Source: Akkermansia sp. (GTDB taxonomy: Bacteria; Verrucomicrobiota; Verrucomicrobiia; Verrucomicrobiales; Akkermansiaceae). From it: a stretch of 64,000 bases of DNA. The notes below the pieces were generated by a model. It was not told the DNA's origin, searched no databases, and worked only from the letters and a program-made list of their open reading frames with translations. This document shows positions 13,939 through 38,875 of this stretch, piece after piece. A program made the translations under genes and the position numbers. The stretch spans positions 64,961 through 128,960 of the forward strand of contig JAFVIC010000003.1 in assembly GCA_017477935.1 (NCBI GenBank). Direction: 5' to 3'. How positions within the stretch are numbered: the first letter of the stretch is position 1; each line of letters starts with the position of its first letter.

Positions 13939-14213
13939 GCACGAGCGGTATGCCTTTTGATTGTATGACGCGGAGCCAGTCACGTCATAAGTGTGAAAAT
14001 CAGCAGGCTTCCGCACCTTTCATACATACCCTTTTCATGCACAAATTACTAAATACGATGCAAGAAAAATTACTTGCCAGCAAAAATCGTTAATGCTACA
14101 ATTCGGAGAAAGTAAGTTTGCCCTCAGCAACACTCAGGCAGCATGCGCATGGTCAAATATATTTTTTCCATCTAAATTGTCAGCCCACAACATTACAGAA
14201 ACAATCGCAACAA

Positions 14214-21000: not shown

Positions 21001-21924
21001 ATGAAATACCTGCTGCCAATGGGCGCCATGCTGCCCCTGTGCCTGAGCCACTGTACCTGCCCCGATGATTACCGGCAGGTGCCACAACCGCACGCCACCA
21101 CCGTGGCACAGGTGCAAGCCCTGAGCGATTGCCAGATTCACCACTATGGCACAACCCTGCTGGCAGATGCCCCCGGCCCGGAGGTTGCACGGGCACTACT
21201 GGAGCGAGGCGCGCAGCCGGTGGGCAAAATCATACGCAACGGACAGATCGAGACAGGGAGTGCCATAGCGCAAACGGACAATGCGAGGGTCATGCGCGTG
21301 CTGCTCGATGCAGGGGCAGATGCCAACGTGGGCGGCGGCAGCACCCACCGCAACGCTCTCTGCAGCGCAGCAGCCACCGGCAACACTCAAGCGGTGAGCC
21401 TGCTGCTCGACAGCGGTGCCGACCCGAACCGCGTAGACTCGCGCGGGGAATCGCCCCTTTACCTCGCAGCCACCAACATGCACACCGATGCCTGTAACCT
21501 GCTGCTCACCCATGGAGCCCCACCCGACTACGGCCGCACCGCCGATGGCGAAAGCCCGCTGATGGGGGTACTGAAATCCGGTGCAGACCAGGCTCAGAAA
21601 ATAGCCATTGCACAAGCCTTGCTGGCCGGGGGCGCCGACCCGCTGCAGGCGGATGCCGATGGCAATACCCCCCTGCACTATGCCCCCGCTGAGCTGGTAC
21701 CCACCCTGCTGGCTGCCGGGGCAAATGTACAGGCCCGCAATTACATGGGCCGCACCCCGCTTTTCTGCTGCAATGACCTGCTGCAGGCCCAGGCTCTGAT
21801 TGAGGCCGGGGCCGATATGAACACGACAGACTACCAAGGCAACAAGCCCTTCGATATCATCACCAACGCACAGGTTAAGTCATACCTGCTTATCCGCGGT
21901 GCCGGCGGCGGCTCCCACTACTGA
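21001..21924 (+). CDS. Ankyrin-repeat lipoprotein
   Basis: Lipobox-like LSHC. Repeats G.SPLYLAA, GNTPLHYA, GRTPLF, LLDAGADAN. Confidence 0.85.
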   Translation: MKYLLPMGAMLPLCLSHCTCPDDYRQVPQPHATTVAQVQALSDCQIHHYGTTLLADAPGPEVARALLERGAQPVGKIIRNGQIETGSAIAQTDNARVMRVLLDAGADANVGGGSTHRNALCSAAATGNTQAVSLLLDSGADPNRVDSRGESPLYLAATNMHTDACNLLLTHGAPPDYGRTADGESPLMGVLKSGADQAQKIAIAQALLAGGADPLQADADGNTPLHYAPAELVPTLLAAGANVQARNYMGRTPLFCCNDLLQAQALIEAGADMNTTDYQGNKPFDIITNAQVKSYLLIRGAGGGSHY

Positions 21925-26389: not shown

Positions 26390-26908
26390 ATGCAAACAAT
26401 AGAAACTCAGCTACATCGGCAATACGCCATCACCGCCACCAGCCCCTGCACAGTCACCGCCAATGACGGCATGTTACTTTGCACCGCTCAACCGGGAGAG
26501 CAGAAGATTTTTACGGCCATTTCCGGCAGCGTTAATGTAAGTGATCCCGCCGCTGTCATCTCACTTCTGTTCGGAAAATTCACGGAAAACAGTGCGACAG
26601 ATGTGCCCCAGCCCTTCCATACCGGAGCCCGGCCTGACATACTGCAAGCCGGCCATGTATATGACCTCGGCGTTCTTTCTACGGATACCGATTTGACAGG
26701 ACTAATGTTCTCTGCAAAAGAACATGTTCAAACGGCGGAACTCTGGTTCAGCACCGGAAGTACAGCTCCGACTATCATTTGGCCGGTCGATTGCATTTGG
26801 ATTGGCCTTTTTCCGGCTCTGACAACCAACATGGCTTACCGATTTGCTATACGCCAAGAACCTTCCGGCAAACTCTTCATCAACCTCGCTTATGAATATC
26901 CCGCATAA
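26390..26908 (+). CDS. Hypothetical protein, phage tail-associated-like
   Basis: 172 aa, beta-rich. The C-terminal 'LDLTGLMF...AELWF.TG...IWP..W..P....YRFAIR' pattern resembles tail-fibre appendage domains. Overlaps the next ORF. Confidence 0.5.
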   Translation: MQTIETQLHRQYAITATSPCTVTANDGMLLCTAQPGEQKIFTAISGSVNVSDPAAVISLLFGKFTENSATDVPQPFHTGARPDILQAGHVYDLGVLSTDTDLTGLMFSAKEHVQTAELWFSTGSTAPTIIWPVDCIWIGLFPALTTNMAYRFAIRQEPSGKLFINLAYEYPA

Positions 26909-27929
26909 ACTCTACCCACTTGGCAATACTCTCACCCTGCCGGTTGGTTATATAGAGCTGGATTTCTTAGAAAGTACCGGTGAACAGTATATCAATACAG
27001 ATTACATACCTGACAACAACACAGGGATTAGCTGTATACATGAATACCGCTCTGCATCAGACACCATCATATTCGGCTGCAGAAATTCCGCTTCCACCGA
27101 AACTCGATTTTACTGCACCCGAGGGGTTCGTTCATCGGAACACACCGCCACAGATGGTTTCGGCTGGGGACAATGGACCATCATAAGGAGCACCATCCAA
27201 ACCATACGCACCCGTCTGACTGGCTCGCTCAATTGGTTGAACTCCATGAAGGCACGCCACCCCATCTATCATACTAACCTAACAGAGCTACCATATAGGC
27301 CTAATTGTCCGCTTTACCTTTTTGCCGCTAATATAGGGAATCAGGTTTCCCTGGCCGCATCGGCACGTATATGGCGTGCCGGAATTTCAGCATATAATCA
27401 CATTGTACATTATTTTATACCTGCTCTTACATCAGACGGTATTCCCTGTATGTACTGCCCCCTGTCAAAAAAAACAATTTTCAATGAAGGCAACGGCAGT
27501 CCCCTGGTGGCAGGAGTAGCGTCCATTGAAGCCCTACGCAAATTACTCATCGCTTTGCCTTCCACCGGCGGAGATATCAAGTTAAGCCTGCCGAGCAATG
27601 CCAACACCCCTGACCTTGCTGAACAAATGGCCTTAACTGCCGCAACCAAGGGATGGACCCTTACCATCTATGAATATCGAAAGAACGTGCCTGCGACATA
27701 TTCACTGCGCCGCGTGCGCGAAGGAGTGTGGTGCCGCAAGACTCCGTCTGAACACGGCCGATACGCTGATAACTCCGGGAAGCGCTGGCAGGTGGAATAC
27801 TGTGCCGACATCTTCACACCCCATGGCCACCCCCCATCTGAACTCGGTTATGAACTTTTTGAAACAGTAAATGAAGCGACCGAAAACTGGGGATTATACC
27901 TGATGGAAGAGTCAGCAACTACTATCTGA
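26892..27929 (+). CDS. Hypothetical protein with phage tail-fibre-like LPxGY.ELxxLESTGxQYI motif and a ConA-like domain
   Basis: TLPVGYIELDFLESTGEQYINTDY; LYLFAAN...RIWRA...FIPAL...G.PCMY. Start ATG 26892 overlaps the upstream stop. Confidence 0.55.
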   Translation: MNIPHKLYPLGNTLTLPVGYIELDFLESTGEQYINTDYIPDNNTGISCIHEYRSASDTIIFGCRNSASTETRFYCTRGVRSSEHTATDGFGWGQWTIIRSTIQTIRTRLTGSLNWLNSMKARHPIYHTNLTELPYRPNCPLYLFAANIGNQVSLAASARIWRAGISAYNHIVHYFIPALTSDGIPCMYCPLSKKTIFNEGNGSPLVAGVASIEALRKLLIALPSTGGDIKLSLPSNANTPDLAEQMALTAATKGWTLTIYEYRKNVPATYSLRRVREGVWCRKTPSEHGRYADNSGKRWQVEYCADIFTPHGHPPSELGYELFETVNEATENWGLYLMEESATTI

Positions 27930-27994: not shown

Positions 27995-29461
27995 TTAACA
28001 ATCCTTTTTGGCTACGGAAAACTTTTTCTGGAACTGCTTCTTCACCTCTGAGAAAATCTCACAAAAAGCTTCTTCTTTCATCGCATACAACACTCCAAAA
28101 TATATCAACACTGAAATGCCACCGCCCAGCAAAATCTGGAAAAACGGATGCAACTCACACTGAGTGATACAATACGCAGGAATCACACTAATAAAAGCCA
28201 GCGCAAAATAAGGCAAATAATCTCGCTGCTGGCGCCACCACGACAAGTTAATCAGTTTACCCGTATAAAAAGAATTAATGATAACTGCAATCTGAGTATA
28301 AATCACCATTCCCCAACAAATAGCTTCCACTCCTATAGTGGCAGCATATAAAAGAATGGCCACTGATATGCTCTTCTTAATAACCTCGAGCTTCAGCACA
28401 ATTCCAGAACGCCCCTTCACTTTCAACAAATTAAGATTGATGCTACAGATATGATCAAATGCGTACGCAAAGCTCAGAATCTGTATATAAACTGCGCAGG
28501 GCACCCACGAAGCACCATAAAGAATATACACTCCCGGAGCTGCCAATGATGCCATCAGCACACAAAGCCAAGCTATACACACGGTACTAACCTTTATATA
28601 TTTGCGATATGCTCTGGCCAACCGTTCATCATCATGCTGGACCGTTGCCAAAATAGGGTAAGTAATTGATGCCAACACACCATTGATTGTGACAGGTGCC
28701 AACTCAGACAAATGCTGGCCGCGGCTGTACAACCCAAGCTGTGCGGCGGAATAAAATTTACCTATGATAAATGTTCGAAGCTGGGTATACAGGGTATGCA
28801 GCAAACCGGCACAGGCTAACTTACTACCAAAACCAAACAGGCTACGGAAAGATTGTGTGGAAAAAACTAATCGAGGTTTCCAAGGGGAGCGAATCCATAA
28901 CAGTGATAATGAGACGAATGACGCTACAACATTCTGCGCCATCAGGGCCCATACGCCCCAGCCCAGCCATGCCAGCAACAGACATATCGGCATGCCGCTA
29001 AATGCACTCAGCATGCCTATCTTAGCCAAAGTTTTGAAATCTCTGCGCCGCTGAAAAAGTGTTTTGTGTACACTCGTTGTGGACATCATCAACATCATCA
29101 CGGCAGATACACGAGTCAACCACAATAACTCCGGCTGCTGATAAAAAGACGCAAACCAAGGCGCTAAAAGAAACAGCGTAAGACTGAGCACAAAACTCAT
29201 CAACAGATTGAACCAGAACATCGTGTCGACGTCCTCGTCCGTCATGTCGCTTTTGCGTATGAGTGCAGATCCGAATCCGGCCTCAGCCAAACACCCTGCA
29301 ACAGCAAAGAATATGGCCGTCAGCCCCAGAATACCCATCTCTGACGGCGTAATCAAACGGGCCAGCACCATACCAAAAACCATCTGCACAGGCTGCACAG
29401 TGAGAGTTTGTAAAAAACTCCACTTTGCACTCTTAACGGTTTCTGATTTGATGCTGCCCAT
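27995..29461 (-). CDS. wzx: Polysaccharide flippase (Wzx/WzxC type)
   Basis: VKSAKWS, LARLITPSEMG, GFGSALIR, LF.FGSKL, IIGKFYSAAQLGLYSRG. 12-14 TM segments. Confidence 0.92.
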   Translation of the reverse strand: MGSIKSETVKSAKWSFLQTLTVQPVQMVFGMVLARLITPSEMGILGLTAIFFAVAGCLAEAGFGSALIRKSDMTDEDVDTMFWFNLLMSFVLSLTLFLLAPWFASFYQQPELLWLTRVSAVMMLMMSTTSVHKTLFQRRRDFKTLAKIGMLSAFSGMPICLLLAWLGWGVWALMAQNVVASFVSLSLLWIRSPWKPRLVFSTQSFRSLFGFGSKLACAGLLHTLYTQLRTFIIGKFYSAAQLGLYSRGQHLSELAPVTINGVLASITYPILATVQHDDERLARAYRKYIKVSTVCIAWLCVLMASLAAPGVYILYGASWVPCAVYIQILSFAYAFDHICSINLNLLKVKGRSGIVLKLEVIKKSISVAILLYAATIGVEAICWGMVIYTQIAVIINSFYTGKLINLSWWRQQRDYLPYFALAFISVIPAYCITQCELHPFFQILLGGGISVLIYFGVLYAMKEEAFCEIFSEVKKQFQKKFSVAKKDC

Positions 29462-29480: not shown

Positions 29481-30371
29481 CTATTTGGCTATCAGCTCAT
29501 ATAAATGGTGAGCAAACACTATGTCATGCAATGCTAAACCTATATTGTAACTGAGAATTTGCTCCTCATCATTTTGTCTACCTTGGACAGTTCCGTCCAA
29601 CACATCAGGCAATTCTGCAAATGATTTAAAACGATTAAAATATTTAAACCCGTCTACATGTGAAGTATCATCTGCAAATACCCGGTCAAACGTCAAGTCA
29701 CAATTTTGAAAGCCTCGCGTATGAACCGGGACAACAAGACAACCGGGACGATAGGCCTCGACAGGAGCAATCAAATCACCAGCGTACGTAATACACGAGA
29801 TAACAACATCACTAGCGCGAACCATCTCCTCCGGAGTTTCGGATACTACAATATTCCAACAGGTATTGTCTCGTATCCACCCCTCAATTCTCTCAACATG
29901 ATCTTTGTATTTCAATAAATTGAGAGTTATCTTTCGTTCAGAATAAATGGCAGCCAGACATTTGATGGTTGCCACACCGGTAGAGCCCAGCCCCATAACA
30001 CCGATGCTCTCAAAATCCGATTTAGCCAAAGTTTCTACCGCGACAGCCGCCACCGCACCGGTGCGGAATGTCGTAATATGGTATGCATCCATCAGGCTCA
30101 ATAACTCACCATCAGAATAGCGATACAACAACAACTCACCATCCACAGATGGCACCCTATTCGAGTATCTGGTTACTATCTTTGCACCAAATACGTTCAA
30201 TGAAGGAACCATGCACGGCATGGTATTCATGAAATTCAGTTCTTCGAATGGAATACTAATCTTATGCGGCAATTTAGATTTCTTTTTAAGGGAAAAGGAC
30301 TCCTTTACCCAAGTTACAGCCTTCGCATAAGACAACTGAGCTTCAACCTGTTCGTTAGTAATGATTTTCAT
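29481..30371 (-). CDS. Ornithine cyclodeaminase / mu-crystallin family protein
   Basis: GAKIVT, LLSLMDA..IT.FRTGAVAA, GVMGLGSTG Rossmann motif, SDVVIS, GLAL.DI..A. Confidence 0.85.
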   Translation of the reverse strand: MKIITNEQVEAQLSYAKAVTWVKESFSLKKKSKLPHKISIPFEELNFMNTMPCMVPSLNVFGAKIVTRYSNRVPSVDGELLLYRYSDGELLSLMDAYHITTFRTGAVAAVAVETLAKSDFESIGVMGLGSTGVATIKCLAAIYSERKITLNLLKYKDHVERIEGWIRDNTCWNIVVSETPEEMVRASDVVISCITYAGDLIAPVEAYRPGCLVVPVHTRGFQNCDLTFDRVFADDTSHVDGFKYFNRFKSFAELPDVLDGTVQGRQNDEEQILSYNIGLALHDIVFAHHLYELIAK

Positions 30372-30382
30372 AATTAGATTGA

Positions 30383-32203
30383 TTAAATGTTTTTCATTGC
30401 CTCAGTCAAAGCATTATTATCCTTTTCATCTCGTACCGCGATACGGATGAAATTGCGCCCCTTCATGGCATTCTTTCCACTGCAATCTTTAATGAGGATA
30501 TCATGCTTCTCAAGAAGTGTCTCAGTAAGCTGGCGAGAGGTATAAGGCGGCAGCACTTCACAGAGGAAATAATTCGCCTGACTGGGCAAAACACGGAGGA
30601 AAGGAACGGCTGAGAGTTCATTCATAAAACGCCTGCGCTCATTCATAAACTGAACACAAGCCTGCTGATAATTTTTCTCATACTTGCCGAAAATCTGCAT
30701 GTAGAACTCACCCAGAGAATTGATATTCCATATAGCAACATCTTTCTTGAGCCAACTGATAAATTGCTCATCACCGCTTGCCATGATACCGAGTCTCAGT
30801 CCGGGTACACCGTAGGACTTAGAGATACTCTTAACCACTACAAGGTGGGGATAGCTCTCAAGCACTGAGTTGGTCAAAAGTGTGTTATTCGGTGTACCTT
30901 CGGAGAAATCAACAAAAGACTCATCAATGATAAGCTTAATTCCCTTCTTACTGCTCCATGCGCACAGGCGCAACACATCTGCCCTGGGTATAAAATTGCC
31001 GCTGGGATTATCAGGGTTAACCACCAACAGAGTGCTGATATCCTTATCTTCAAAATACTCCATCAGCATATCTGCCGTATAGGCAAAATCATGCTCCACA
31101 GTTTCAAAACAGACCAATCGATCTTTGCTGAGTCTGTTCGGGTATTCCTCGAAGGTTGGCAACACCACGCCCAGCTTACCCTCGAGAGACTCCATAAGCC
31201 CCTTGATAAGTTCAGCCGCACCATTACCCACACATACATAATTGTGCTTAATGCCGAAATATTTGCCGGCAAGCAGGCTATTAACTCTCATACCGGAGGG
31301 ATAATTGCACACCAAGCGATCAAAATTAGCCTTCAGCTCCGACATCAAGCGAGAATTCGGGAAATAGGGATTAACCAGATAGCAGAAGTCCAGAATGCGG
31401 GGATAACGCCAATAGCCACCATAGCGGCCTTCCATTTTTTTGAGTTTCTCTTCCGGTTTGCAGAACATAGATTCCGCAATATCAAGATCCTGAACATCGT
31501 CAATCTCATACCATGCTTCACCGCTCAAACGCAAAGCCTTGATTTCCGGTTTATCCAGCAGTGCGATAACACGCAATACCTGTTCATAATATTCGTTATT
31601 ACCCAGAGCTTTGCTATATGCTGCAAGGAACGGTACATAGTGAGAAGTTGAGAACTCTTTGCTGAACTTATAGATGTTGACCGTTTTGTAATAATTCTCT
31701 GTGGCCTCGTGTGAGAATTTGCTGCCGGGAATAAAGCTCTTGATATTATCCTCGTAGTCTAAGGTAACGACGGTACCATCCATCCAGCTCTCAAACTTGT
31801 CCACCAGAGCCAAACTGGGATAAGGATTCTGAACAATACGCTCAATCACAGAATCTTCCATAATCAAGTCCGATTCAAACAAGAGGGTATCTTCCCGCAT
31901 CAGATAATCCTTTGCAAGATAGAGAGAGTAAATATTATTTGTCGTGGCGTAGATAGGATTGTCAACATACTCAATGGCGCACTTTATGCCCAGAGTATCC
32001 ACATACTCTCTGAGTTTGCGGCCTTCATAACCGGTAACAATAACTATACGGGAAAGGGCTTCCGGTGCTTTCACCTTCTCCAATTGCCTGAGCAAGCGTT
32101 CAATGAGCGTCACCCCGTTGACCTTGACCATACATTTGGTATTATTCTGGGTGAGATCGCCAAGGCGCTTTCCCATACCAGCGGCTAAAATAATGGCTTG
32201 CAT
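30383..32203 (-). CDS. Fusion: LicC-like nucleotidyl(cytidylyl)transferase + class I/II PLP enzyme (CobD/HisC-like)
   Basis: N-terminal QAIILAAGMGKRLG..T...KCM, NNIYSL, WYEIDD.QDL. C-terminal GNGAAELI, NPDNPSG, IIDESF, PLP-lysine KSISKSYGVPGLRLG, SQANY. Confidence 0.88.
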   Translation of the reverse strand: MQAIILAAGMGKRLGDLTQNNTKCMVKVNGVTLIERLLRQLEKVKAPEALSRIVIVTGYEGRKLREYVDTLGIKCAIEYVDNPIYATTNNIYSLYLAKDYLMREDTLLFESDLIMEDSVIERIVQNPYPSLALVDKFESWMDGTVVTLDYEDNIKSFIPGSKFSHEATENYYKTVNIYKFSKEFSTSHYVPFLAAYSKALGNNEYYEQVLRVIALLDKPEIKALRLSGEAWYEIDDVQDLDIAESMFCKPEEKLKKMEGRYGGYWRYPRILDFCYLVNPYFPNSRLMSELKANFDRLVCNYPSGMRVNSLLAGKYFGIKHNYVCVGNGAAELIKGLMESLEGKLGVVLPTFEEYPNRLSKDRLVCFETVEHDFAYTADMLMEYFEDKDISTLLVVNPDNPSGNFIPRADVLRLCAWSSKKGIKLIIDESFVDFSEGTPNNTLLTNSVLESYPHLVVVKSISKSYGVPGLRLGIMASGDEQFISWLKKDVAIWNINSLGEFYMQIFGKYEKNYQQACVQFMNERRRFMNELSAVPFLRVLPSQANYFLCEVLPPYTSRQLTETLLEKHDILIKDCSGKNAMKGRNFIRIAVRDEKDNNALTEAMKNI

Positions 32204-32217
32204 AATAACTGATAAAA

Positions 32218-33477
32218 TTAAGGGTTAAGCAAATCTGTGATAATATTCTGAACGGGTGACTGATTGTTGGGGCAGAGGTAACTCTGTAAGAAAGCTGCTC
32301 TTTTTTCAGCCAGAGGATCTTCTTCGGCCAAAACCAGCTGAATGAATTTCTCGACATCCTCAGAGGTCTGCCCTTTCTGATAACACTCCAAAGCCTGCTT
32401 TGTTGACTCGTTAAACTCAGGCCTGCTATCATCACGCTCCATGTAAAGACAGGGCTTATCCATAAGAAGGTATTCCAGAATAAACGATCCACAATCATGA
32501 ATCATGGCATCAGAACGGCCGAATAATTCAGCATAGTCGCCATCAACAAGAGAGGTATTGGAACCTTCTACCCATGCCTGATAATATGCATCTGTTCGCT
32601 CTTGCCCCCATTCCTCGTCTTTGTAAAGAGAGCGTTTCAGTATGGGATGAGGCTTAAACACCAGCTCCACCTGCTCAGCATACTTCTGGGCAATCTTCAA
32701 CATATCATCAGCAATCAGCAAGAAGGTAGAAACATTAAGAGCTCGCCTCTCCATATTTCTCACGGTCCAATGCGGAGCCCATATTATTCGCTTACGCCCC
32801 TCAGTTCGTTCAACCTTCGAATTGAGAAGCCAATCAGCCATAGGCAACCCGGTCACTCTCGTGTTGCGGGCTTTGTTCTTCATATACTTACGGGCCTCCT
32901 GTTGTATATAGGCAGATTCTACGTAGTAACGATAGAAATATTTTAATTTCCAACCTCCATATACAAGGTTTGTTGCCATATTGCTGAACCCGTATGGAAC
33001 AAAAATCGGCAAAATTCCCTTCAATTCATATATATCGAAAGGAATCACGTGGTCATAAGGTTTTACTACGAACAGGAAATCCGGAACAAATTGCTGCCTA
33101 AGCTCTTGCAGAGATGCAGCTTCATAATACAGAAAATTATGCTTGCGGACGTATTCTTTACAAGCATTGCGAATCTCTTGCCGAACTTCATCATTCGCCA
33201 CGCGAGGCTCATCAGTAAGCCAAAAAGCAGGGATAAAGCGTTCGTCTGCTTCCATAGCTTTAAACAAAGGCTCATTCTTCCAGAACGGCAGCTCATAAAG
33301 CAAAAATGCCACACGGAGAGGACGCTTATGCTGATGCAGTTCACGCACTTTTTTCAGGGCAATTCGCCGCTGGCAAGCAGCAACCCAGCAAAGTCTCACT
33401 CCACGCATCACACTGTAGGCCAGGTCACGTACATACTTGGTCAAAACATTTTTACCCATTTTGTCGTAAATATTCAT
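32218..33477 (-). CDS. CDP-glycerol glycerophosphotransferase (TagB/TagF-like) family protein
   Basis: RVTG.P..D, IIWAPHWT, FKPHPIL, SDAMIHDCGSFILEYL..DKP.LY. Confidence 0.8.
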   Translation of the reverse strand: MNIYDKMGKNVLTKYVRDLAYSVMRGVRLCWVAACQRRIALKKVRELHQHKRPLRVAFLLYELPFWKNEPLFKAMEADERFIPAFWLTDEPRVANDEVRQEIRNACKEYVRKHNFLYYEAASLQELRQQFVPDFLFVVKPYDHVIPFDIYELKGILPIFVPYGFSNMATNLVYGGWKLKYFYRYYVESAYIQQEARKYMKNKARNTRVTGLPMADWLLNSKVERTEGRKRIIWAPHWTVRNMERRALNVSTFLLIADDMLKIAQKYAEQVELVFKPHPILKRSLYKDEEWGQERTDAYYQAWVEGSNTSLVDGDYAELFGRSDAMIHDCGSFILEYLLMDKPCLYMERDDSRPEFNESTKQALECYQKGQTSEDVEKFIQLVLAEEDPLAEKRAAFLQSYLCPNNQSPVQNIITDLLNP

Positions 33478-33829: not shown

Positions 33830-34305
33830 TAGATATTTCACTATGGGATGCGAATACGAGATCAGGAAAAAGCAGGGGATAACTTTCGCCCTACAAAGCA
33901 ATCATCGTTGGCATAAATAAAATGCTCTACCAAATTGGGAATCTTATGCAAGCAGCATTCCAATGCCTCTGAATTAAAGCAAGGACGTGCAGATTCCAGC
34001 GGGATTTCCGTGTGAACGACAATGGTAATTTTTTCGTGCGTGTAATACCATTTCGGCACCTGTTTATTGGTGATAATATAGATGTGGTGAATCCAGAGCA
34101 TGTACATAGCCAAGCTTCTGAGGCAAAGTCGTAAGTTCAGGCAGTCTGCTGCAGTATAACTCCGAACCGCGTTTCCTCTCTGGCCCTCACTACCGAAAAA
34201 AACGTACGCCGTACTCAGGTTCCCTAGAGCCATTAGAGCCCCTAAGCATTTTGCGATATCTTGCTCAGAACCAGAGTAACCGTTAAACTCGATACAAATT
34301 GACAC
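33830..34305 (-). pseudogene. Truncated/degenerate duplicate of the Stealth gene (CR2 only)
   Basis: WIHHIYIITNKQVPKW..HEKITIV.H.EI..ESARPCFNS.ALECCLHKIPNL.EHFIYANDD.FVGRK is nearly identical to part of 34636..35571. CR1 is absent and there is an early stop at 33862. Confidence 0.8.
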
Positions 34306-34635: not shown

Positions 34636-35571
34636 CTAACGTTCAAAGGGGGATTTTACTGGAAAGCGAGATTCAAGAAAGCATCGTGTGCGGGCGCGGT
34701 CTTCGTCTGTCGCAACTTCGCAATCGTTGATACAAAATAAGGCCGGATGATTAGGGGCAAGGTGTTTCATGGGACTATGGTTGGATTCAACCATAGAGTC
34801 AAGATATGCCATGTGAATTTTTTTCATGACGCGTTGCAAAAATGTCCTGCTGACATCTTTCAAAACAGCTTGTTTTTTGACCAGAGCATACATAAGAAAC
34901 AAAATTCGCTGCAAGCATGATTCATTGCGGAATGGTTGATGGATAGTGTGATGGAACCAATCTGGAAATTCCTTTTCACAACCAGCTAGGATCGTTTTAG
35001 TGTATGCGTCCATATTATGGTGGGAACTATAGTTACCAAAGGTTATACCAAAGCGTTGTTTAATAGCCTCATGTGCGGTTTTTATCGTATGCCAATATAG
35101 CCCACCCCCTATTATGGATTTTTTCCATCTGACTATGGGTTTTCCCATCCGTTCGTAAAAGAAATTGGGTGTTATTTTTCTTCCTACAAACATGTCATCG
35201 TTGGCATAGATAAAATGCTCTGCCAGATTGGGGATCTTATGCAAGCAGCACTCTAATGCCTGAGAATTAAAGCAGGGACGTGCAGATTCGGGAAGGATTT
35301 CGGAGTGGTCGACAATGGTAATTTTTTCGTGCGGGCGGAACCATTTTGGTATCTGGTTATTTGTAACAATATAAATGTGGTGAATCCATGGCATATGCAT
35401 GACTACGCTTCGGAGACTGTACTTCAGCTCATCAATTTGAACATAGCGGCAATCCGGGTTTTCTTTCATAGCGGCGTTGCATTGTCTCATTCGTTCACGC
35501 CTTTGTCGGGCGAAATTCTCATCATTGCCATCGCACCACAGATAGACAAGATCTATATCATAATCTTTCAT
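34636..35571 (-). CDS. Stealth-family hexose-1-phosphate transferase
   Basis: CR1 IDLVYLWCDG, CR2 ELKYSLRSV..MPWIHHIYIVT..Q.P.W...FNS.ALE..LHKIP.L.EHFIYANDD, CR3 HHNMDAY.K, CR4 FCIND. Confidence 0.92.
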   Translation of the reverse strand: MKDYDIDLVYLWCDGNDENFARQRRERMRQCNAAMKENPDCRYVQIDELKYSLRSVVMHMPWIHHIYIVTNNQIPKWFRPHEKITIVDHSEILPESARPCFNSQALECCLHKIPNLAEHFIYANDDMFVGRKITPNFFYERMGKPIVRWKKSIIGGGLYWHTIKTAHEAIKQRFGITFGNYSSHHNMDAYTKTILAGCEKEFPDWFHHTIHQPFRNESCLQRILFLMYALVKKQAVLKDVSRTFLQRVMKKIHMAYLDSMVESNHSPMKHLAPNHPALFCINDCEVATDEDRARTRCFLESRFPVKSPFER

Positions 35572-35761: not shown

Positions 35762-36751
35762 TTATATAACCACCAGCGAGTCTTCGACATTTTTGCGGGG
35801 AGAAATGGCTAACGGGAAATTGTGCTCAGCGAGTGTCCCGCAGACCATAAGAGCTATGATGGATTCTGAGTCAGGGATGCCGATGAGTTTATGAATTTTC
35901 CTGAGACTTCCCGCTGTGCATGGCATACCCAGAATACAATGAGCTACTTTATTGTAATGCAAAGCATAAGAGAGGTTCATAAGGTAAATACCTCCGTTTA
36001 CATAGAGGGACATCCCTTCTAAAGCGTAGAAACTACTCCTGTCGCATGTGATGACAAGTGCCTTATCCGCAAACTGGCCGAACCCGCGGTTTCCACCTTG
36101 TAATTGCAGTAGTTGTGCCCGTTTTTCATTATCTGCCACACAATATACTTTCCAAGGCTGCCTGTTACAGGCGGAAGGGGAGTTATTTGCAAGTTCGACC
36201 GCAGCTTGAATTTGCTTCATAGAAACGGGAGTTTTGCCGAAGTTTCGTACGCTATGCCGAGATGCTGAGAACTTTGCAAAGTCTGCGTTCAAGTGACGCC
36301 AATATTCTTCAGGGGAGGATTCAATTTGTGCCGAGCTTGTAATATTTGCTGTAGCTAAAATGGATTCAAGAGCGGACTCTATGCTGGATTCAAGAGGGAA
36401 ATGTTCTCTTTGATGCAGGTGGTAATATTCTGACAGTACAGCAAGTGCATGGTGGCATACGTCGCTGTATTCACCATTGTTGAGTTTGTGCACGAGCTGC
36501 AGTTGCTTAATAGTCTGCAACACCATAGGTTGACCAAATCCGAGCCTACGTTCAGGCATTGTCAGCCCTTTTTCCAATACATGATACATGGCTGTGAGTC
36601 TTGCTTCTTCCCCTTTGCAAGTGCAGCAAGTATCCATACAGTATTGTGCGTGCTTTTTGCAGAAATAGGCAAAGTATTTTATGATTGACAATTTTTGTCG
36701 CAACTTGACATAGTAGCGGAAGAGTGCGGTTTTTTTGAGTATAGCTTTCAT
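35762..36751 (-). CDS. Nitroreductase-family protein
   Basis: HVLEKGL N-terminal region, SRHSVRNF, A.NSPSACNRQPW.VY. Confidence 0.85.
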   Translation of the reverse strand: MKAILKKTALFRYYVKLRQKLSIIKYFAYFCKKHAQYCMDTCCTCKGEEARLTAMYHVLEKGLTMPERRLGFGQPMVLQTIKQLQLVHKLNNGEYSDVCHHALAVLSEYYHLHQREHFPLESSIESALESILATANITSSAQIESSPEEYWRHLNADFAKFSASRHSVRNFGKTPVSMKQIQAAVELANNSPSACNRQPWKVYCVADNEKRAQLLQLQGGNRGFGQFADKALVITCDRSSFYALEGMSLYVNGGIYLMNLSYALHYNKVAHCILGMPCTAGSLRKIHKLIGIPDSESIIALMVCGTLAEHNFPLAISPRKNVEDSLVVI

Positions 36752-37917
36752 TTTGCGGATAAAGGGAAAGGGTTATCAGTCTGGTTTAATATATTGAAAA
36801 GGATTTGCATAGAATGCTGTTTGCTGGTTTCCAGCTGTTTCATATCATGGGTATCTGGAGATACGATTTTTACTAATCCATCAGGGGTGATAATTTCTTC
36901 TAAATTGCTGGGGCAAATGCCGAAGTATTTGAAAAGGGAATCAAAACGGCTATTTCTATGAGATGCTTTTAGCTTGTTTTCCTGCAATACATGCAAGGGT
37001 TTTCGGAACAACAGCGAGAATGCGGAACCATGAAAGGACGTCGTCACCACTGCTCTGGCATGACGTATAAGCCACACAAACTCGGCAGGCCCCACTCCCG
37101 ACAATGCCTGGGAGCTATCATCACTGACAGTCCCGACAATCGGCGGCTGAATAGAATATACAGCACAGCCTTCAGCCTTGGCTAAATCTCTAGCATACGG
37201 CATAAGCTCCATCTTACCACCAACACTATACACCAGTATGTAATCGGAGGAACGCAAGGGATAAGGACGTTCAAAACTTTTCCACTCCTCATCGGATAAC
37301 AATAGTACCGGATCACAAACAACCCCAACCGGACGATTTAACAGCGCCTCCAACACTTCCGCTGCTACATGTTCTCGCACGGTTATATTAGTAAAACCAC
37401 TCAATTTTTCACGATAGATTTTGCTAACTTCATCTCCCAGTACAGATACTCCAATACTGGCAGCATACGAGTTTTTCTTGCTTGCCGATTTTACAAAATC
37501 AAGAAGATAAGAACAGTCTCCGGCTTCCCCCGCTACTGCAACTATATCAGGATTCCATATCTGATCACTACCGGCAACGAACAAATCGTACAATTCATTG
37601 GAACATTGTAACTCTGACGGGGAAGTATATACCTGAGAAGATATCTTCATCACCTCCCTGCGAAACGCCGCAAAAGCACGATATGTTTTACCATCTCGAA
37701 GATAACGATGATGCATCAAAGCACAAAATCCCTTTAAATTTTTCGCCCGGGGAATATACGAATGATAAAATCTCTCAGCTTTATCAGGGCGATAATCGAG
37801 GATTTCAGCTTCTGCTCCCAACTTATTAATGACATTAGTCAGCGCATGAGCCTGAAGAACAGCTCCGTAATTATTAGCTCTGTGAAAAGTAAGAACGGCT
37901 ACTTTTTTCATAAGCAC
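36748..37917 (-). CDS. Polysaccharide pyruvyl transferase family protein
   Basis: LTFHRANNYGAVLQA.AL, VAGSDQIWN, SYAASIG, ITVRE, VCDPVLLL, TTSFHG.AFS. Confidence 0.92.
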   Translation of the reverse strand: MLMKKVAVLTFHRANNYGAVLQAHALTNVINKLGAEAEILDYRPDKAERFYHSYIPRAKNLKGFCALMHHRYLRDGKTYRAFAAFRREVMKISSQVYTSPSELQCSNELYDLFVAGSDQIWNPDIVAVAGEAGDCSYLLDFVKSASKKNSYAASIGVSVLGDEVSKIYREKLSGFTNITVREHVAAEVLEALLNRPVGVVCDPVLLLSDEEWKSFERPYPLRSSDYILVYSVGGKMELMPYARDLAKAEGCAVYSIQPPIVGTVSDDSSQALSGVGPAEFVWLIRHARAVVTTSFHGSAFSLLFRKPLHVLQENKLKASHRNSRFDSLFKYFGICPSNLEEIITPDGLVKIVSPDTHDMKQLETSKQHSMQILFNILNQTDNPFPLSAK

Positions 37918-37939: not shown

Positions 37940-38875
37940 TCATTCAGCAGAAATCAGGCGCCCGTAATATGTCAGCAAACCGTCTTCCGTATATTCCTTG
38001 AACGGTATTTTATACGACAATTTAAACCAACGGCACTCATCGCACATCTTACGAAACTTTTCTTCATCGCAGGGTTCATTAGCAATCTTTTCAAACTCCA
38101 GAATATGTGGGGCCAATTCCACACCGGCATCTACTCCACATTGAGTATCTTCATTGTGATCATAGGCTGCCAATAATAAATAATCCATAATAAGATAATC
38201 TACCGCGTAATCCATCGTTTTCCAATACTCCTGTTTCATTTCTGCTGCACAACAAAACCAAGGAGAACGAGCAACAGCTCCCATCAAAAAACATTTCCAC
38301 AGACATCGATTGACTCCGACATAATTAAAATCAAAGACAGTACGCACAGAAAAGTATGGCTTATTGAAAATTGATTCCGGTATAGCCCTATGAACATATA
38401 TAGTACTATCTATCCATATTCCACCTCGTTCAGCCAGAAGAGACATACGCATGACATCAGAAAAGTGAATATAACTCATTTTACCTTTGCGCAATTTTTC
38501 ATAAATACACTCAGGCAATTGAACATATTGAGCGATATTCCCCATATGAAGCAGCACCACCTCTCGCCCCTTCGGAGCCATTAACTTCAAGCGTTCATAA
38601 CAAAGTTTAACGATAGGAGGCATATTCTCCTCCCCCTGAAGCCAACACACCCATATCGGCCCGGAATTCTCGTATCCAGGACTTACAGCAGACTTATATT
38701 TTTCTAGAATTTTCGAAAAACGCCGCTCAAAGAAAGCATGATTCACACTTCGCATAGCCTTTCGTCGCAGAATTGGATCCTTGTACTTAAGATGAGTAAA
38801 AATACATGGGATGATATACTCCCAATCCATATCCCTGAAAAAATAAAATATTTTTTTTATCCTTGCTCCAAACAT
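37940..38875 (-). CDS. Capsular polysaccharide synthesis protein (Caps_synth, DXD glycosyltransferase)
   Basis: IWVCWLQGEENMP.IV..C, HFSDVMR.SLLAERGGIWIDST, DYLIMDY, KLSYK. Confidence 0.9.
   Translation of the reverse strand: MFGARIKKIFYFFRDMDWEYIIPCIFTHLKYKDPILRRKAMRSVNHAFFERRFSKILEKYKSAVSPGYENSGPIWVCWLQGEENMPPIVKLCYERLKLMAPKGREVVLLHMGNIAQYVQLPECIYEKLRKGKMSYIHFSDVMRMSLLAERGGIWIDSTIYVHRAIPESIFNKPYFSVRTVFDFNYVGVNRCLWKCFLMGAVARSPWFCCAAEMKQEYWKTMDYAVDYLIMDYLLLAAYDHNEDTQCGVDAGVELAPHILEFEKIANEPCDEEKFRKMCDECRWFKLSYKIPFKEYTEDGLLTYYGRLISAE

What the first reader, a model, noticed from the sequence alone, without database searches (positions are those of the whole stretch)
29481..33477. Candidate pathway for an opine-like phospho-substituent (e.g. 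N-carboxyethyl-ethanolamine phosphate) on a surface glycan
Seen: adjacent genes for a TagB/F-like CDP-alcohol phosphotransferase, a LicC-like cytidylyltransferase fused to a CobD/HisC-like PLP enzyme, and an OCD/mu-crystallin enzyme, next to wzx. Established: CobD-type enzymes decarboxylate L-Thr-P or L-Ser-P to amino-alcohol phosphates; LicC makes CDP-choline; OCD-family members include imine reductases (archaeal alanine dehydrogenase, SbnB). From memory, 2-[(1-carboxyethyl)amino]ethyl phosphate occurs in a Proteus mirabilis O-polysaccharide. Inference: Ser-P to EtN-P to CDP-EtN, then reductive condensation with pyruvate, then transfer to the glycan. I am not aware of a biochemical description of this route.
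Basis: partly seen in the sequence, partly recalled or inferred. Interest (0 to 1): 0.72.

Follow-up and report, generated by a model that had tools for sequence, protein, structure and literature searches.

The report
Opine-type phospho-ethanolamine glycan decoration cassette
An Akkermansia surface-sugar gene cluster carries a compact cassette, widespread in gut bacteria, that most likely makes a CDP-activated amino-alcohol phosphate, adds a carboxyalkyl group to its nitrogen (an "opine"), and attaches it to a glycan; I found no published description of this route.

Summary
On the minus strand of a low-GC island in an Akkermansia sp. genome lie wzx (27995-29461), an OCD/mu-crystallin gene (29481-30371), a LicC-like cytidylyltransferase fused to a CobD-like PLP enzyme (30383-32203) and a TagF/TarL-like phosphotransferase (32218-33477).

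- The fusion-OCD pair is conserved: 67 of 80 genome loci chosen by OCD have the fusion within 1.5 kb. The transferase partner swaps between LicD and TagF-like.
- In loci chosen by the fusion, the slot next to it holds OCD (15), an octopine/nopaline dehydrogenase (ODH) family gene (16) or nothing (41).
- Two Akkermansia loci with 94-96% identical flanking proteins differ at that slot only: OCD in one, ODH in the other.
- The documented activity both families share is NAD(P)H-dependent condensation of an amine with an alpha-keto acid.
- The same OCD subfamily also sits in a bona fide 2-aminoethylphosphonate cluster.
- The fusion shows no residue differences between partnered and unpartnered forms, so OCD/ODH looks like optional tailoring, probably of CDP-ethanolamine.

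Not shown: any enzyme activity, the amino alcohol, the keto acid, the step order, or the glycan. N-[(R)-1-carboxyethyl]ethanolamine phosphate is known in Proteus. I found no paper on its biosynthesis.

The parts
32218..33477 (-). TagB/TagF/TarL-like CDP-alcohol phosphotransferase (419 aa). Predicted to transfer the substituted amino-alcohol phosphate from the CDP donor to the glycan.
   Evidence: PF04464, E 1.2e-10, above the gathering score. The family profile hits TarL 8va1 at 1.7e-9, with H277 invariant in the PHP motif.
31469..32203 (-). N-terminal LicC/PntC-like cytidylyltransferase domain of the 606-aa fusion (about residues 1-245).
   Evidence: NTP_transf_3 at 6.9e-10 and NTP_transferase at 3.1e-7. 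LicC 1jyk at 1.9e-12 and PntC-AEPT 6pd1 at 4.5e-11. G9-x-G11-x-R13...K23 matches the GXG(T/S)RX4-8PK signature described in PMC6697681 and is invariant in 143 fusions.
30383..31435 (-). C-terminal CobD/SMUL_1544-like PLP domain of the fusion (about residues 257-606). Predicted L-serine-O-phosphate decarboxylase that makes ethanolamine phosphate.
   Evidence: TIGR01140 CobD at 8.3e-48 against HisC at 4.1e-38. Best PDB hit 6oux at 5e-44, then CobD 1lc5; true HisC entries score much lower. The PLP lysine lies in SKSYG. The DESF motif matches SMUL_1544 (DESF) and CobD (DEAF), not HisC (DEAY).
29481..30371 (-). OCD/mu-crystallin-family NAD(P)H oxidoreductase (296 aa) of a distinct subfamily. Predicted opine-type synthase that N-carboxyalkylates the amino-ethyl phosphate donor.
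   Evidence: PF02423 at 1e-25. Far below every NCBIfam equivalog cut-off. AF2 pLDDT 94 and Foldseek TM 0.82-0.87 to family members at about 20% identity. The signature K37 K64 R68 R103 K156 H217 R/K219 C224 D225 D234 R265 Y275 N276 H282 D283 is invariant or nearly invariant in 102 homologues.
27995..29461 (-). Wzx/MOP-family flippase, a frequent member of the cassette.
   Evidence: Polysacc_synt_3 at 7.3e-84. A Wzx homologue lies within 2 kb of OCD in 15 of 80 genome loci, and next to ODH in L090.
34636..35571 (-). Stealth-family protein (CR1, CR2, CR4) in the same island. Stealth proteins are hexose-1-phosphate transferases (from memory).
   Evidence: Stealth_CR2 at 1e-39, CR4 at 4.9e-6 and CR1 at 1.1e-5.
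33862..34305 (-). Truncated second Stealth copy (CR2 region only), a probable pseudogene or recombination scar.
   Evidence: Stealth_CR2 at 3.7e-29 in a 147-aa ORF. The equivalent fragment in L006 is 64% identical to the intact window Stealth protein.
35762..36751 (-). Nitroreductase-family protein, overlapping the pyruvyl transferase gene by 4 nt.
   Evidence: PF00881 at 1.9e-17.
36748..37917 (-). Polysaccharide pyruvyl transferase.
   Evidence: PF04230 at 6.4e-33.
37940..38875 (-). Caps_synth-family glycosyltransferase with a DXD-containing Gly_transf_sug region; the first gene of the island.
   Evidence: PF05704 at 2.9e-61 and PF04488 at 6.2e-5.

Best explanation
The three genes form a donor-synthesis and transfer cassette for an opine-like phospho-substituent on a surface glycan.

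1. Inferred from homology: the PLP domain of the fusion decarboxylates L-serine O-phosphate, a central metabolite, to ethanolamine phosphate.
2. Inferred from homology and from the fusion: the LicC-like domain joins it to CTP to give CDP-ethanolamine.
3. Inferred from gene displacement and family precedent: the OCD-family enzyme uses NAD(P)H to condense the free amine with an alpha-keto acid. Pyruvate is the most likely partner and would give N-(1-carboxyethyl)ethanolamine. This step most likely acts on the CDP-linked form.
4. Inferred from homology: the TagF/TarL-like enzyme transfers the substituted amino-alcohol phosphate to a sugar of the lipid-linked unit. The adjacent Wzx then flips that unit.

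In other genomes the same fusion works with LicD instead of TagF. It pairs with an octopine-dehydrogenase-family enzyme instead of OCD, or with no tailoring enzyme at all (plain phospho-amino-alcohol).
For: Domain assignments.

Cassette conservation: the fusion lies within 1.5 kb of OCD in 67 of 80 genome loci (65 on the same strand). LicD is present in 47 loci and TagF-like in 10.

Gene displacement:
- L002 and L088 share flanking proteins at 94-96% identity and the fusion at 92%. The slot after the fusion holds OCD in L002 and an Octopine_DH (PF02317) protein in L088.
- L089 has TagF-like, then a fusion 87% identical to the window's, then ODH. This is the window's architecture with ODH in place of OCD.
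- L008 carries a truncated ODH remnant right after a 99%-identical OCD.
- In a tree of 143 fusions, OCD and ODH partners mix within clusters of >=85% identity, with at least 14 state changes.

The A. muciniphila ODH keeps the His, Arg and Asp aligned with Pecten octopine dehydrogenase motifs VHP, NRY and TED.

The OCD/CRYM superfamily includes tauropine and strombine dehydrogenases (PMC4141209) and an enzyme that alkylaminates alpha-keto acids (PMC8446579).

The same OCD subfamily, with an identical signature, follows a Ppm-Ppd-PntC/AEPT cluster. That cluster makes CMP-2-aminoethylphosphonate, a near-isostere of CDP-ethanolamine.

The fusion is found without OCD or ODH but with TagF-like or LicD in 41 of 72 fusion-selected loci. 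No residue distinguishes partnered from unpartnered fusions.

N-[(R)-1-carboxyethyl]ethanolamine phosphate is a known O-polysaccharide component (PMC9630907).
Against: - No biochemical or structural-chemistry data exist for any of these proteins.
- The PLP domain scores below the CobD equivalog cut-off (163 against 290 bits). The same subfamily includes a transaminase, Cj1437, which converts DHAP to serinol-P. The amino alcohol could therefore be serinol.
- OCD and ODH occur together and intact in L017, L059, L072, L040 and L075. This is unexpected if they are strictly redundant.
- The OCD family also holds NH3-dependent amino-acid dehydrogenases, so a helper role is not excluded.
- Published A. 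muciniphila LOS analyses mention no amino-alkyl phosphate.
- No Wzy or initiating transferase is in the island, so the acceptor glycan is unknown.
Confidence: 0.6

Rival explanations
1. Same cassette logic, but the PLP domain is a transaminase like C. jejuni Cj1437 rather than a decarboxylase. The activated alcohol would be serinol phosphate, made from dihydroxyacetone phosphate. If the substrate were Thr-P instead, the product would be aminopropanol phosphate. OCD or ODH would still N-carboxyalkylate it.
For: Cj1437 (a transaminase) and Cj1436 (a Ser-P decarboxylase) are both capsule enzymes of this general class. The domain is below the CobD equivalog cut-off. In L040 and L075 the OCD sits with a class-V transaminase and a TagD-like cytidylyltransferase fused to a GFO/IDH/MocA dehydrogenase. 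That combination would fit a route to CDP-serinol.
Against: The best matches are decarboxylases: 6oux at 1.2e-43 and the CobD model, both above HisC. The DESF motif is shared with decarboxylases, while HisC has DEAY. The link to 2-aminoethylphosphonate clusters points to an amino-ethyl substrate. Thr-P would need a dedicated kinase, and none is in the cassette.
Confidence: 0.15
2. The OCD protein is an NH3-dependent amino-acid dehydrogenase, like archaeal alanine dehydrogenase. It would regenerate the amino donor or supply the amino-acid substrate for the PLP enzyme. The final substituent would then be a plain amino-alcohol phosphate. ODH, where present, would do something different.
For: Archaeal AlaDH 1omo is among the closest sequence and fold matches. 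OCD is always next to a PLP enzyme, including class-V transaminases that use alanine/pyruvate. OCD and ODH co-occur in several loci.
Against: The fusion works without any such helper in 41 of 72 loci, and its sequence is unchanged. A decarboxylase needs no amino donor. Same-slot replacement by an opine-dehydrogenase-family gene between near-identical loci would then be coincidence. The subfamily has extra invariant basic residues (R68, K156, R/K219, H217, H282) that the aligned AlaDH, Pyr2C reductase and CRYM sequences lack at R68, H217-R219 and H282. TIGR02371 scores 73.8 bits against a cut-off of 409.
Confidence: 0.12
3. The OCD protein is unrelated to the phospho-substituent. For example, it could make proline, pipecolate or another amino acid that is attached elsewhere. 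Alternatively, it could be an ordinary metabolic gene caught in the island.
For: A few homologues lie outside any visible cassette, for instance next to nadC in L044 and L079.
Against: Adjacency to the fusion holds in 67 of 80 loci across phyla, usually with overlapping or near-abutting reading frames. No amide ligase or amino-acid-handling gene is in the cassette. Scores against the ornithine cyclodeaminase models are negligible: 24.4 against 350 and 41.5 against 337.
Confidence: 0.05

Closest known systems
Lic phosphocholine pathway (LicC cytidylyltransferase, LicD transferases, TacF flippase) of Streptococcus pneumoniae and Haemophilus
   Same: A LicC-type enzyme makes a CDP-amino-alcohol. 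A LicD (or here TagF-like) enzyme transfers the phospho-alcohol to a glycan. A dedicated MOP flippase sits in the locus (TacF in PMC13385700).
   Different: No kinase or uptake step: the phospho-alcohol is made de novo by a fused PLP enzyme. An extra reductive tailoring enzyme (OCD or ODH) is present. The substituent would be anionic or zwitterionic rather than a quaternary amine.
Pnt pathway for 2-aminoethylphosphonate decoration (PntC-AEPT fusion Tde1415, PDB 6pd1/6pd2; Rice et al. 2019, PMC6697681)
   Same: A nucleotidyltransferase is fused to the PLP enzyme that makes the amino-ethyl-P compound, with LicD-like transferases nearby. The same OCD subfamily is found in one such cluster, L051.
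   Different: Here the PLP domain is class I/II CobD-like, not class V. The predicted chemistry is decarboxylation, not transamination. The product is a phosphate ester, not a phosphonate. The paper does not mention OCD or ODH partners.
L-Ser-P / L-Thr-P decarboxylases: SMUL_1544 (6oux), CobD (1lc5), C. jejuni Cj1436
   Same: They are the best sequence matches of the PLP domain. The PLP lysine and the DE(S/A)F motif are shared. Cj1436 makes ethanolamine-P for a capsule.
   Different: Here the domain is fused to a cytidylyltransferase. It scores below the CobD equivalog cut-off. In C. jejuni the product is used by an amide ligase, not activated with CTP.
Opine dehydrogenases: sponge tauropine and strombine dehydrogenases (OCD/CRYM superfamily), and the octopine/nopaline dehydrogenase family (Pecten OcDH 3c7a, CENDH 1bg6)
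   Same: NAD(P)H-dependent condensation of a primary amine with pyruvate or glyoxylate. Taurine is the sulfonate analogue of 2-aminoethylphosphonate and of ethanolamine phosphate (established chemistry). Both families occupy the same slot in the cassette.
   Different: The window protein is only about 20% identical to solved family members, and I could not compare it with the sponge enzymes. The proposed amine is a phosphate or nucleotide-linked compound. The role is glycan decoration, not anaerobic redox balance or plant-tumour opines.
N-[(R)-1-carboxyethyl]ethanolamine phosphate substituent of Proteus mirabilis O-polysaccharide
   Same: It is exactly the kind of product predicted (PMC9630907).
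   Different: The organism differs, and the genes are not assigned in the Proteus O-antigen survey I could read. Whether Proteus uses this cassette is untested.
TagF/TarL teichoic-acid CDP-alcohol phosphotransferases
   Same: Pfam family and catalytic-motif conservation.
   Different: Very divergent: no PDB hit with the single sequence. It probably adds a single substituent rather than polymerising. This could not be tested.

Membership tests
OCD/mu-crystallin superfamily (PF02423) | Pfam model above the gathering score | tested here: met
   90.8 bits against a cut-off of 24, covering residues 4-294.
OCD/mu-crystallin superfamily (PF02423) | Two-domain fold with a Rossmann NAD(P)-binding domain | tested here: met
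   AF2 pLDDT 94.2. Foldseek TM 0.82-0.87 and E of about 1e-24 to 6t3e, 4bv9, 1omo and 4mpd. The GLGSTG motif is at residues 127-132.
OCD/mu-crystallin superfamily (PF02423) | Basic residues that bind the substrate alpha-carboxylate (Arg/Lys, Lys, Arg; the roles are recalled from the P. putida OCD structure) | tested here: inconclusive
   K37, K64 and R103 align with PxR/PxK, GxK and RTGA of 6t3e and 1omo, and are invariant. No coordinates were available to confirm their geometry.
Ornithine cyclodeaminase proper, archaeal AlaDH, SbnB, Pyr2C reductase (NCBIfam equivalogs) | Score at or above the curated equivalog cut-off | tested here: not met
   Scores against cut-offs: PRK07589 24.4/350, PRK06407 41.5/337, TIGR02371 73.8/409, TIGR03944 63.9/327, PRK06141 86.5/322. 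The protein belongs to none of the named subfamilies.
Opine (tauropine/strombine-type) dehydrogenase activity | NAD(P)H-dependent condensation of a primary amine with an alpha-keto acid | not testable with these tools
   Indirect evidence only: same-slot replacement by a PF02317 protein and family precedent.
CobD / L-Ser(Thr)-phosphate decarboxylase (TIGR01140) | Score at or above the equivalog cut-off | tested here: not met
   163.2 bits against 290.55. It is still the best-scoring model, ahead of HisC at 131.2.
CobD / L-Ser(Thr)-phosphate decarboxylase (TIGR01140) | Fold-type I PLP enzyme with the Schiff-base lysine and PLP-binding Asn and Asp | tested here: met
   K462 in SKSYG aligns with the lysine of SMUL_1544 SKDFG and CobD TKFYA. 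N399 (NPDNP) and D427 (DESF) are invariant in 143 fusions.
CobD / L-Ser(Thr)-phosphate decarboxylase (TIGR01140) | Decarboxylation rather than transamination | not testable with these tools
   The only indicators are the closest homologues and the Phe-for-Tyr change in DE(S/A)F against HisC DEAY. A structural-genomics entry annotated as Thr-P decarboxylase, 3fkd, has Tyr there.
LicC/PntC-type cytidylyltransferase | GXG(T/S)RX4-8PK signature and the LicC fold family | tested here: met
   AAGMGKRLGDLTQNNTK, with G9, G11, R13 and K23 invariant. The motif has K12 where the consensus has T/S, and T22-K23 where it has P-K. The signature is described in PMC6697681. 1jyk at E 1.9e-12 and 6pd1 at 4.5e-11.
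TagB/TagF/TarL CDP-alcohol phosphotransferase (PF04464) | Pfam model above the gathering score and a conserved catalytic His motif | tested here: met
   41.3 bits against 22.1. 11 of 12 homologues match. The profile hits TarL 8va1 at 1.7e-9, aligning FKPHP with FKMHP. H277 is invariant.
Octopine/nopaline dehydrogenase family (PF02317), for the A. muciniphila counterpart and not the window gene | Pfam match plus residues aligned with the catalytic His-Arg-Asp of Pecten OcDH (their roles are recalled from memory) | tested here: met
   PF02317 is listed for L088 and L089. 3iqd and 3c7a hit at 1e-18, with LLHPS/VHP, SRY/NRY and TED/TED aligned.

The most novel reading that the evidence does not exclude
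Gut bacteria of several phyla may decorate surface glycans with a previously unrecognised class of opine phosphates and phosphonates: N-carboxyalkyl-aminoethyl phosphate or phosphonate. These would be built on a cytidine-nucleotide donor. Two unrelated reductase families (OCD/mu-crystallin and octopine dehydrogenase) would have been recruited convergently to the same step and swapped between strains, possibly giving opposite stereochemistry as a form of antigenic variation. A. muciniphila carries the ODH version in a conserved locus. A cytoplasmic Ser-P -> CDP-ethanolamine route would itself be a new bacterial source of phosphoethanolamine decoration, independent of phosphatidylethanolamine.
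Probability: 0.45. Interest if true: 0.85.

Novelty: new variant of a known kind. Interest (0 to 1): 0.74.

Why it matters
Small charged substituents such as phosphocholine, phosphoethanolamine and aminoethylphosphonate govern how host immunity, lectins, phages and antimicrobial peptides see bacterial glycans.

If the reading is right, the cassette would give a genetic basis for a substituent known chemically only from Proteus. It would also define a de novo bacterial route to CDP-ethanolamine.

It predicts an uncharacterised surface modification in many Bacteroidales, Clostridia and Akkermansia. Homologues of the OCD enzyme are present in 541 of about 185,000 species-representative genomes. 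The ODH version lies in a conserved locus of A. muciniphila, an organism under development as a probiotic.

The prediction is directly testable with three purified proteins and cheap substrates. It also offers a clear case of two unrelated enzyme families replacing each other at one pathway step.

Tried and rejected
- AlphaFold of the TagF-like protein without an alignment gave pLDDT 36.5, which is unusable. It was not searched further. A single-sequence PDB search for it found nothing. The profile search solved this.
- The Proteus O-antigen gene-cluster paper and its supplements carry no annotation for OCD, decarboxylase or cytidylyltransferase. I could not test whether P. mirabilis O14 uses this cassette.
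- A cited SMUL_1544 paper (PMC4966446) is not held, so residues that decide Ser-P against Thr-P preference could not be taken from the literature.
- A. muciniphila LOS papers mention no amino-alkyl phosphate. This is uninformative about other glycans.
- No RNA runs hold the stretch, so there is no expression evidence.
- The search for residues that separate OCD/ODH-partnered fusions from unpartnered ones found none, or three weak ones with lax thresholds. I use this as evidence that the fusion's product is the same in both.
- I considered that OCD is an alanine-dehydrogenase-type helper for a transaminase. I downgraded this after finding the ODH replacement and the partner-free fusions.
- I considered SbnA/SbnB-type diaminopropionate chemistry. 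I rejected it because the PLP enzyme is fold-type I CobD-like and the phosphate must be kept for cytidylylation.
- Four literature searches for a description of the pathway found nothing relevant.
- Model coordinates are not exposed, so active-site geometry could not be inspected.

Full report
**Observation**

The window comes from an Akkermansia species. The closest homologues of the genes are named Akkermansia, and MAG contig JAZRKM010000057.1 carries a 100% identical OCD gene (L006).

A ~43% GC island at 27-39 kb lies in ~58% GC DNA. It holds one minus-strand gene string:
- a Caps_synth glycosyltransferase (37940-38875)
- a pyruvyl transferase (36748-37917)
- a nitroreductase-like protein (35762-36751)
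- a Stealth protein (34636-35571)
- a truncated Stealth copy (33862-34305)
- a TagF-like protein (32218-33477)
- a 606-aa fusion of a LicC-like nucleotidyltransferase and a CobD/HisC-like PLP enzyme (30383-32203)
- an OCD/mu-crystallin protein (29481-30371)
- a Wzx flippase (27995-29461)

The stretch occurs intact in at least six gut metagenome runs, so it is not an assembly artefact.

**The individual proteins**

TagF-like protein. It passes the Pfam gathering score (41.3 against 22.1 bits). A profile of 12 homologues hits the ribitol-phosphate polymerase TarL and aligns FKPHP with FKMHP. H277 is invariant.

Fusion, N-terminal domain. It carries the nucleotidyltransferase signature (G9, G11, R13, K23), which is invariant in 143 homologues. 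It matches LicC (1jyk, 1.9e-12) and the PntC domain of the Treponema PntC-AEPT fusion (6pd1, 4.5e-11). The signature is described in PMC6697681.

Fusion, C-terminal domain.
- It has the PLP lysine (SKSYG).
- Its best family model is CobD (8.3e-48), ahead of HisC (4.1e-38), though it is below the equivalog cut-off.
- Its best solved relative is 6oux (1.2e-43). I recognise this as SMUL_1544, the L-serine-O-phosphate decarboxylase of norcobamide synthesis (my knowledge; the papers are not held). CobD 1lc5 comes next, and true HisC entries score far lower.
- It shares DE(S/A)F with SMUL_1544 and CobD, where HisC has DEAY.
- C. jejuni Cj1436 shows that Ser-P decarboxylation to ethanolamine-P is used in capsule synthesis. 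Its neighbour in the same capsule locus, Cj1437, is a transaminase that makes serinol-P (PMC11800397). The chemistry therefore cannot be read from family membership alone.

OCD protein.
- It folds confidently (pLDDT 94.2).
- It matches Pyr2C reductase, mu-crystallin, archaeal AlaDH, SbnB and iminosuccinate reductase at TM 0.82-0.87 but only 16-22% identity.
- It is far below the cut-off of every named NCBIfam equivalog.
- It belongs to a sharply defined subfamily. K37, K64, R68, R103, K156, H217, R/K219, C224, D225, D234, R265, Y275, N276, H282 and D283 are invariant or nearly so in 102 sequences from several phyla.
- K37, K64 and R103 align with the carboxylate-binding positions of the family.
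- R68, the H217-T-R219 loop and H282 replace non-basic residues of the aligned relatives. From the sequence I infer that these extra basic residues could hold a phosphate or pyrophosphate. Without coordinates this is unverified.

**Context: loci selected by the OCD protein**

A scan of one genome per species found 541 genomes with a relative. The best 80 loci span Akkermansia, many Bacteroidales, Clostridia, Desulfovibrio, an alphaproteobacterium and a Melainabacteria-type MAG (Candidatus Avigastranaerophilus). They include the cultured Bacteroides salyersiae DSM 18765.

| Feature, in 80 OCD-selected genome loci | Loci |
|---|---|
| Fusion within 1.5 kb of OCD | 67 |
| Fusion on the same strand as OCD | 65 |
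| LicD-family transferase in the locus | 47 |
| TagF-like transferase in the locus | 10 |
| Wzx within 2 kb of OCD | 15 |

(Searches give the underlying gene tables.) Within Akkermansia, fusion-OCD pairs that are 95-99% identical sit beside a 97% TagF-like gene, a 56% TagF-like gene, or LicD genes (L006-L009).

This is the pattern of a donor-synthesis module (fusion plus OCD) coupled to interchangeable acceptor-specific CDP-alcohol phosphotransferases.

**Context: what occupies the OCD slot**

This is the key result.

- The fusion homologue of A. muciniphila proper (P0095, 71% identical, found in 844 index blocks) lies in the locus LicD - fusion - X - [TagD-like cytidylyltransferase + GFO/IDH/MocA] - LicD. 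Sulfatase, OTCase, SufE and GlgB flank it on one side; a methyltransferase and UDPGP flank it on the other.
- In L002 and L003, X is an OCD homologue. In L088, X is a 349-aa octopine/nopaline dehydrogenase family protein.
- The flanking proteins are 94-96% identical and the fusion 92% identical between the two loci.
- L089, another Akkermansia contig, reads TagF-like - fusion (87% identical to the window's) - ODH. This is the window's own architecture with ODH in place of OCD.
- L090 and L091 read fusion - ODH - Wzx - LicD.
- L008 has a 182-aa ODH remnant, the C-terminal domain only, directly after a 99% identical OCD.
- The A. muciniphila ODH aligns with Pecten octopine dehydrogenase over its length. 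It keeps the residues at VHP, NRY and TED, which I recall as the catalytic His-Arg-Asp.

**Context: loci selected by the fusion**

An independent sample of 80 metagenome loci was chosen by the fusion (59-70% identity). In the 72 loci not cut by a contig end, the slot held the following:

| Gene next to the fusion | Loci |
|---|---|
| OCD | 15 |
| ODH | 16 |
| Neither | 41 |

The partner-free loci still carry a TagF-like enzyme (fused to a YidC-like domain) or LicD.

In a tree of 143 non-identical fusions, OCD- and ODH-partnered proteins are mixed within clusters of >=85% identity (5 mixed clusters, at least 14 state changes). Partner-free fusions cluster mostly by themselves. Even so, no alignment position separates partnered from partner-free fusions. 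Between-group identity equals within-group identity in both domains.

**Context: other amine-forming modules**

In L051 the same OCD, with an identical signature, follows [cytidylyltransferase + PEP mutase] - phosphonopyruvate decarboxylase - [PntC + class-V transaminase]. That last protein passes the PhnW-AepZ equivalog cut-off. This is a bona fide CMP-2-aminoethylphosphonate pathway (PMC6697681).

In two Clostridia MAGs (L040, L075) the order is LicD - LicD - class-V transaminase - OCD - ODH - [TagD-like + GFO/IDH/MocA].

**Interpretation**

The fusion alone suffices to supply a LicD or TagF-type enzyme, so it makes a complete CDP-alcohol. By homology this is CDP-ethanolamine made from Ser-P. 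Ser-P is a central metabolite, and the cassette contains no kinase.

OCD and ODH are optional and occupy the same position. They are exchanged between near-identical loci. The documented activity I know both families to share is NAD(P)H-dependent reductive condensation of an amine with an alpha-keto acid:
- All biochemically characterised members of the PF02317 family that I know are opine dehydrogenases (my knowledge).
- The OCD/CRYM superfamily contains sponge tauropine and strombine dehydrogenases (PMC4141209).
- The superfamily also contains a yeast enzyme that alkylaminates alpha-keto acids (PMC8446579).

Taurine, 2-aminoethylphosphonate and ethanolamine phosphate are close analogues. The OCD subfamily's presence in both phosphate and phosphonate cassettes fits an amino-ethyl-P substrate.

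The fusion's residues do not change with the partner. I therefore infer that tailoring happens after cytidylylation, on CDP-ethanolamine or CMP-AEP. This is the weakest link.

The predicted product is N-(1-carboxyalkyl)ethanolamine phosphate on a sugar. It has a chemical precedent in N-[(R)-1-carboxyethyl]ethanolamine phosphate of Proteus mirabilis O-polysaccharide (PMC9630907).

All enzymatic steps are inferred; none is shown.

**What does not fit, or is open**

- Five loci have both OCD and ODH intact (L017, L059, L072, L040, L075). They may make two products with a different keto acid or stereochemistry. ODH enzymes give D-configured opines, while OCD-family enzymes usually handle L-centres (my knowledge). 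They may also act in sequence. I cannot tell which.
- A few OCD homologues lie away from any cassette, for example after nadC in L044 and L079.
- The PLP chemistry is not settled: it could be a decarboxylase or a transaminase.
- The island has no Wzy or priming transferase.
- Published A. muciniphila LOS structures report no such group. The acceptor is therefore unknown.

**Novelty**

Four full-text searches and the phosphonate papers gave no description of this fusion-OCD/ODH cassette or of the biosynthesis of carboxyethyl-ethanolamine phosphate. The library lacks most subscription journals, so this is absence within what I could search.

The system is a new variant of the known CDP/CMP-alcohol decoration systems (Lic, Tag/Tar, Pnt). 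It is built entirely from known enzyme families.

Noticed in passing
window 33862-34305 (-): A 147-aa ORF that holds only the Stealth CR2 region, lying 330 nt downstream of the intact Stealth gene. It looks like a truncated duplicate or a recombination scar between the Stealth gene and the TagF-like gene. L006 has the same fragment.
   Followed up: partly
L008:10985-11533: In an Akkermansia MAG whose OCD is 99% identical to the window's, a 182-aa remnant of an octopine-dehydrogenase-family gene (C-terminal domain only) lies directly after OCD. It looks like a fossil of the OCD/ODH replacement.
   Followed up: partly
L040:7080-13611 and L075:7104-13574: Clostridia MAGs carry LicD - LicD - class-V aminotransferase (close to PDB 3f0h) - OCD - Octopine_DH - [TagD-like cytidylyltransferase fused to a GFO/IDH/MocA dehydrogenase]. 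This could be a route from CDP-glycerol through a keto intermediate to a CDP-amino-alcohol. The same TagD-GFO fusion sits next to the cassette in the Akkermansia core locus (L002, L088).
   Followed up: partly
L138:1823-3919 and L112:7828-9738: Next to partner-free fusions, the TagF-like (Glyphos_transf) domain is fused to an N-terminal YidC/60KD_IMP membrane-insertase-like domain. This is an unusual architecture.
   Followed up: no
L044:6090-7900 and L079:9102-10909: In two Bacteroides MAGs the OCD-subfamily gene, with its full signature, overlaps the end of nadC (quinolinate phosphoribosyltransferase). No cassette is visible on the contig.
   Followed up: no
L007 (JAZNZM010000040.1): A 5.5-kb contig binned as Oscillospiraceae carries a fusion, OCD and wzx that are 95-99% identical to the Akkermansia window, but its TagF-like gene is only 56% identical. 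This is either a mis-binned Akkermansia contig or a recent transfer, and it shows mosaic exchange of the transferase.
   Followed up: no
window 4217-6723 (+): A C-5 cytosine DNA methylase followed by an EcoRII-C-domain endonuclease, overlapping by 4 nt, in another low-GC patch (1-7 kb). This is a type II restriction-modification pair.
   Followed up: no
window 21001-21924 (+) and 41914-43530 (-): Two ankyrin-repeat proteins flank the island region. The second combines an Hsp70/MreB-like ATPase region with ankyrin repeats.
   Followed up: no
window 26390-27929 (+): Two overlapping ORFs (172 and 361 aa) with no Pfam match lie between the sulfatase gene and wzx, at the GC boundary of the island.
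   Followed up: no
window 14118-15689 (+): A PMT_2 (ArnT/dolichyl-phosphate-mannose-type) membrane glycosyltransferase in a separate low-GC patch (14-16 kb).
   Followed up: no
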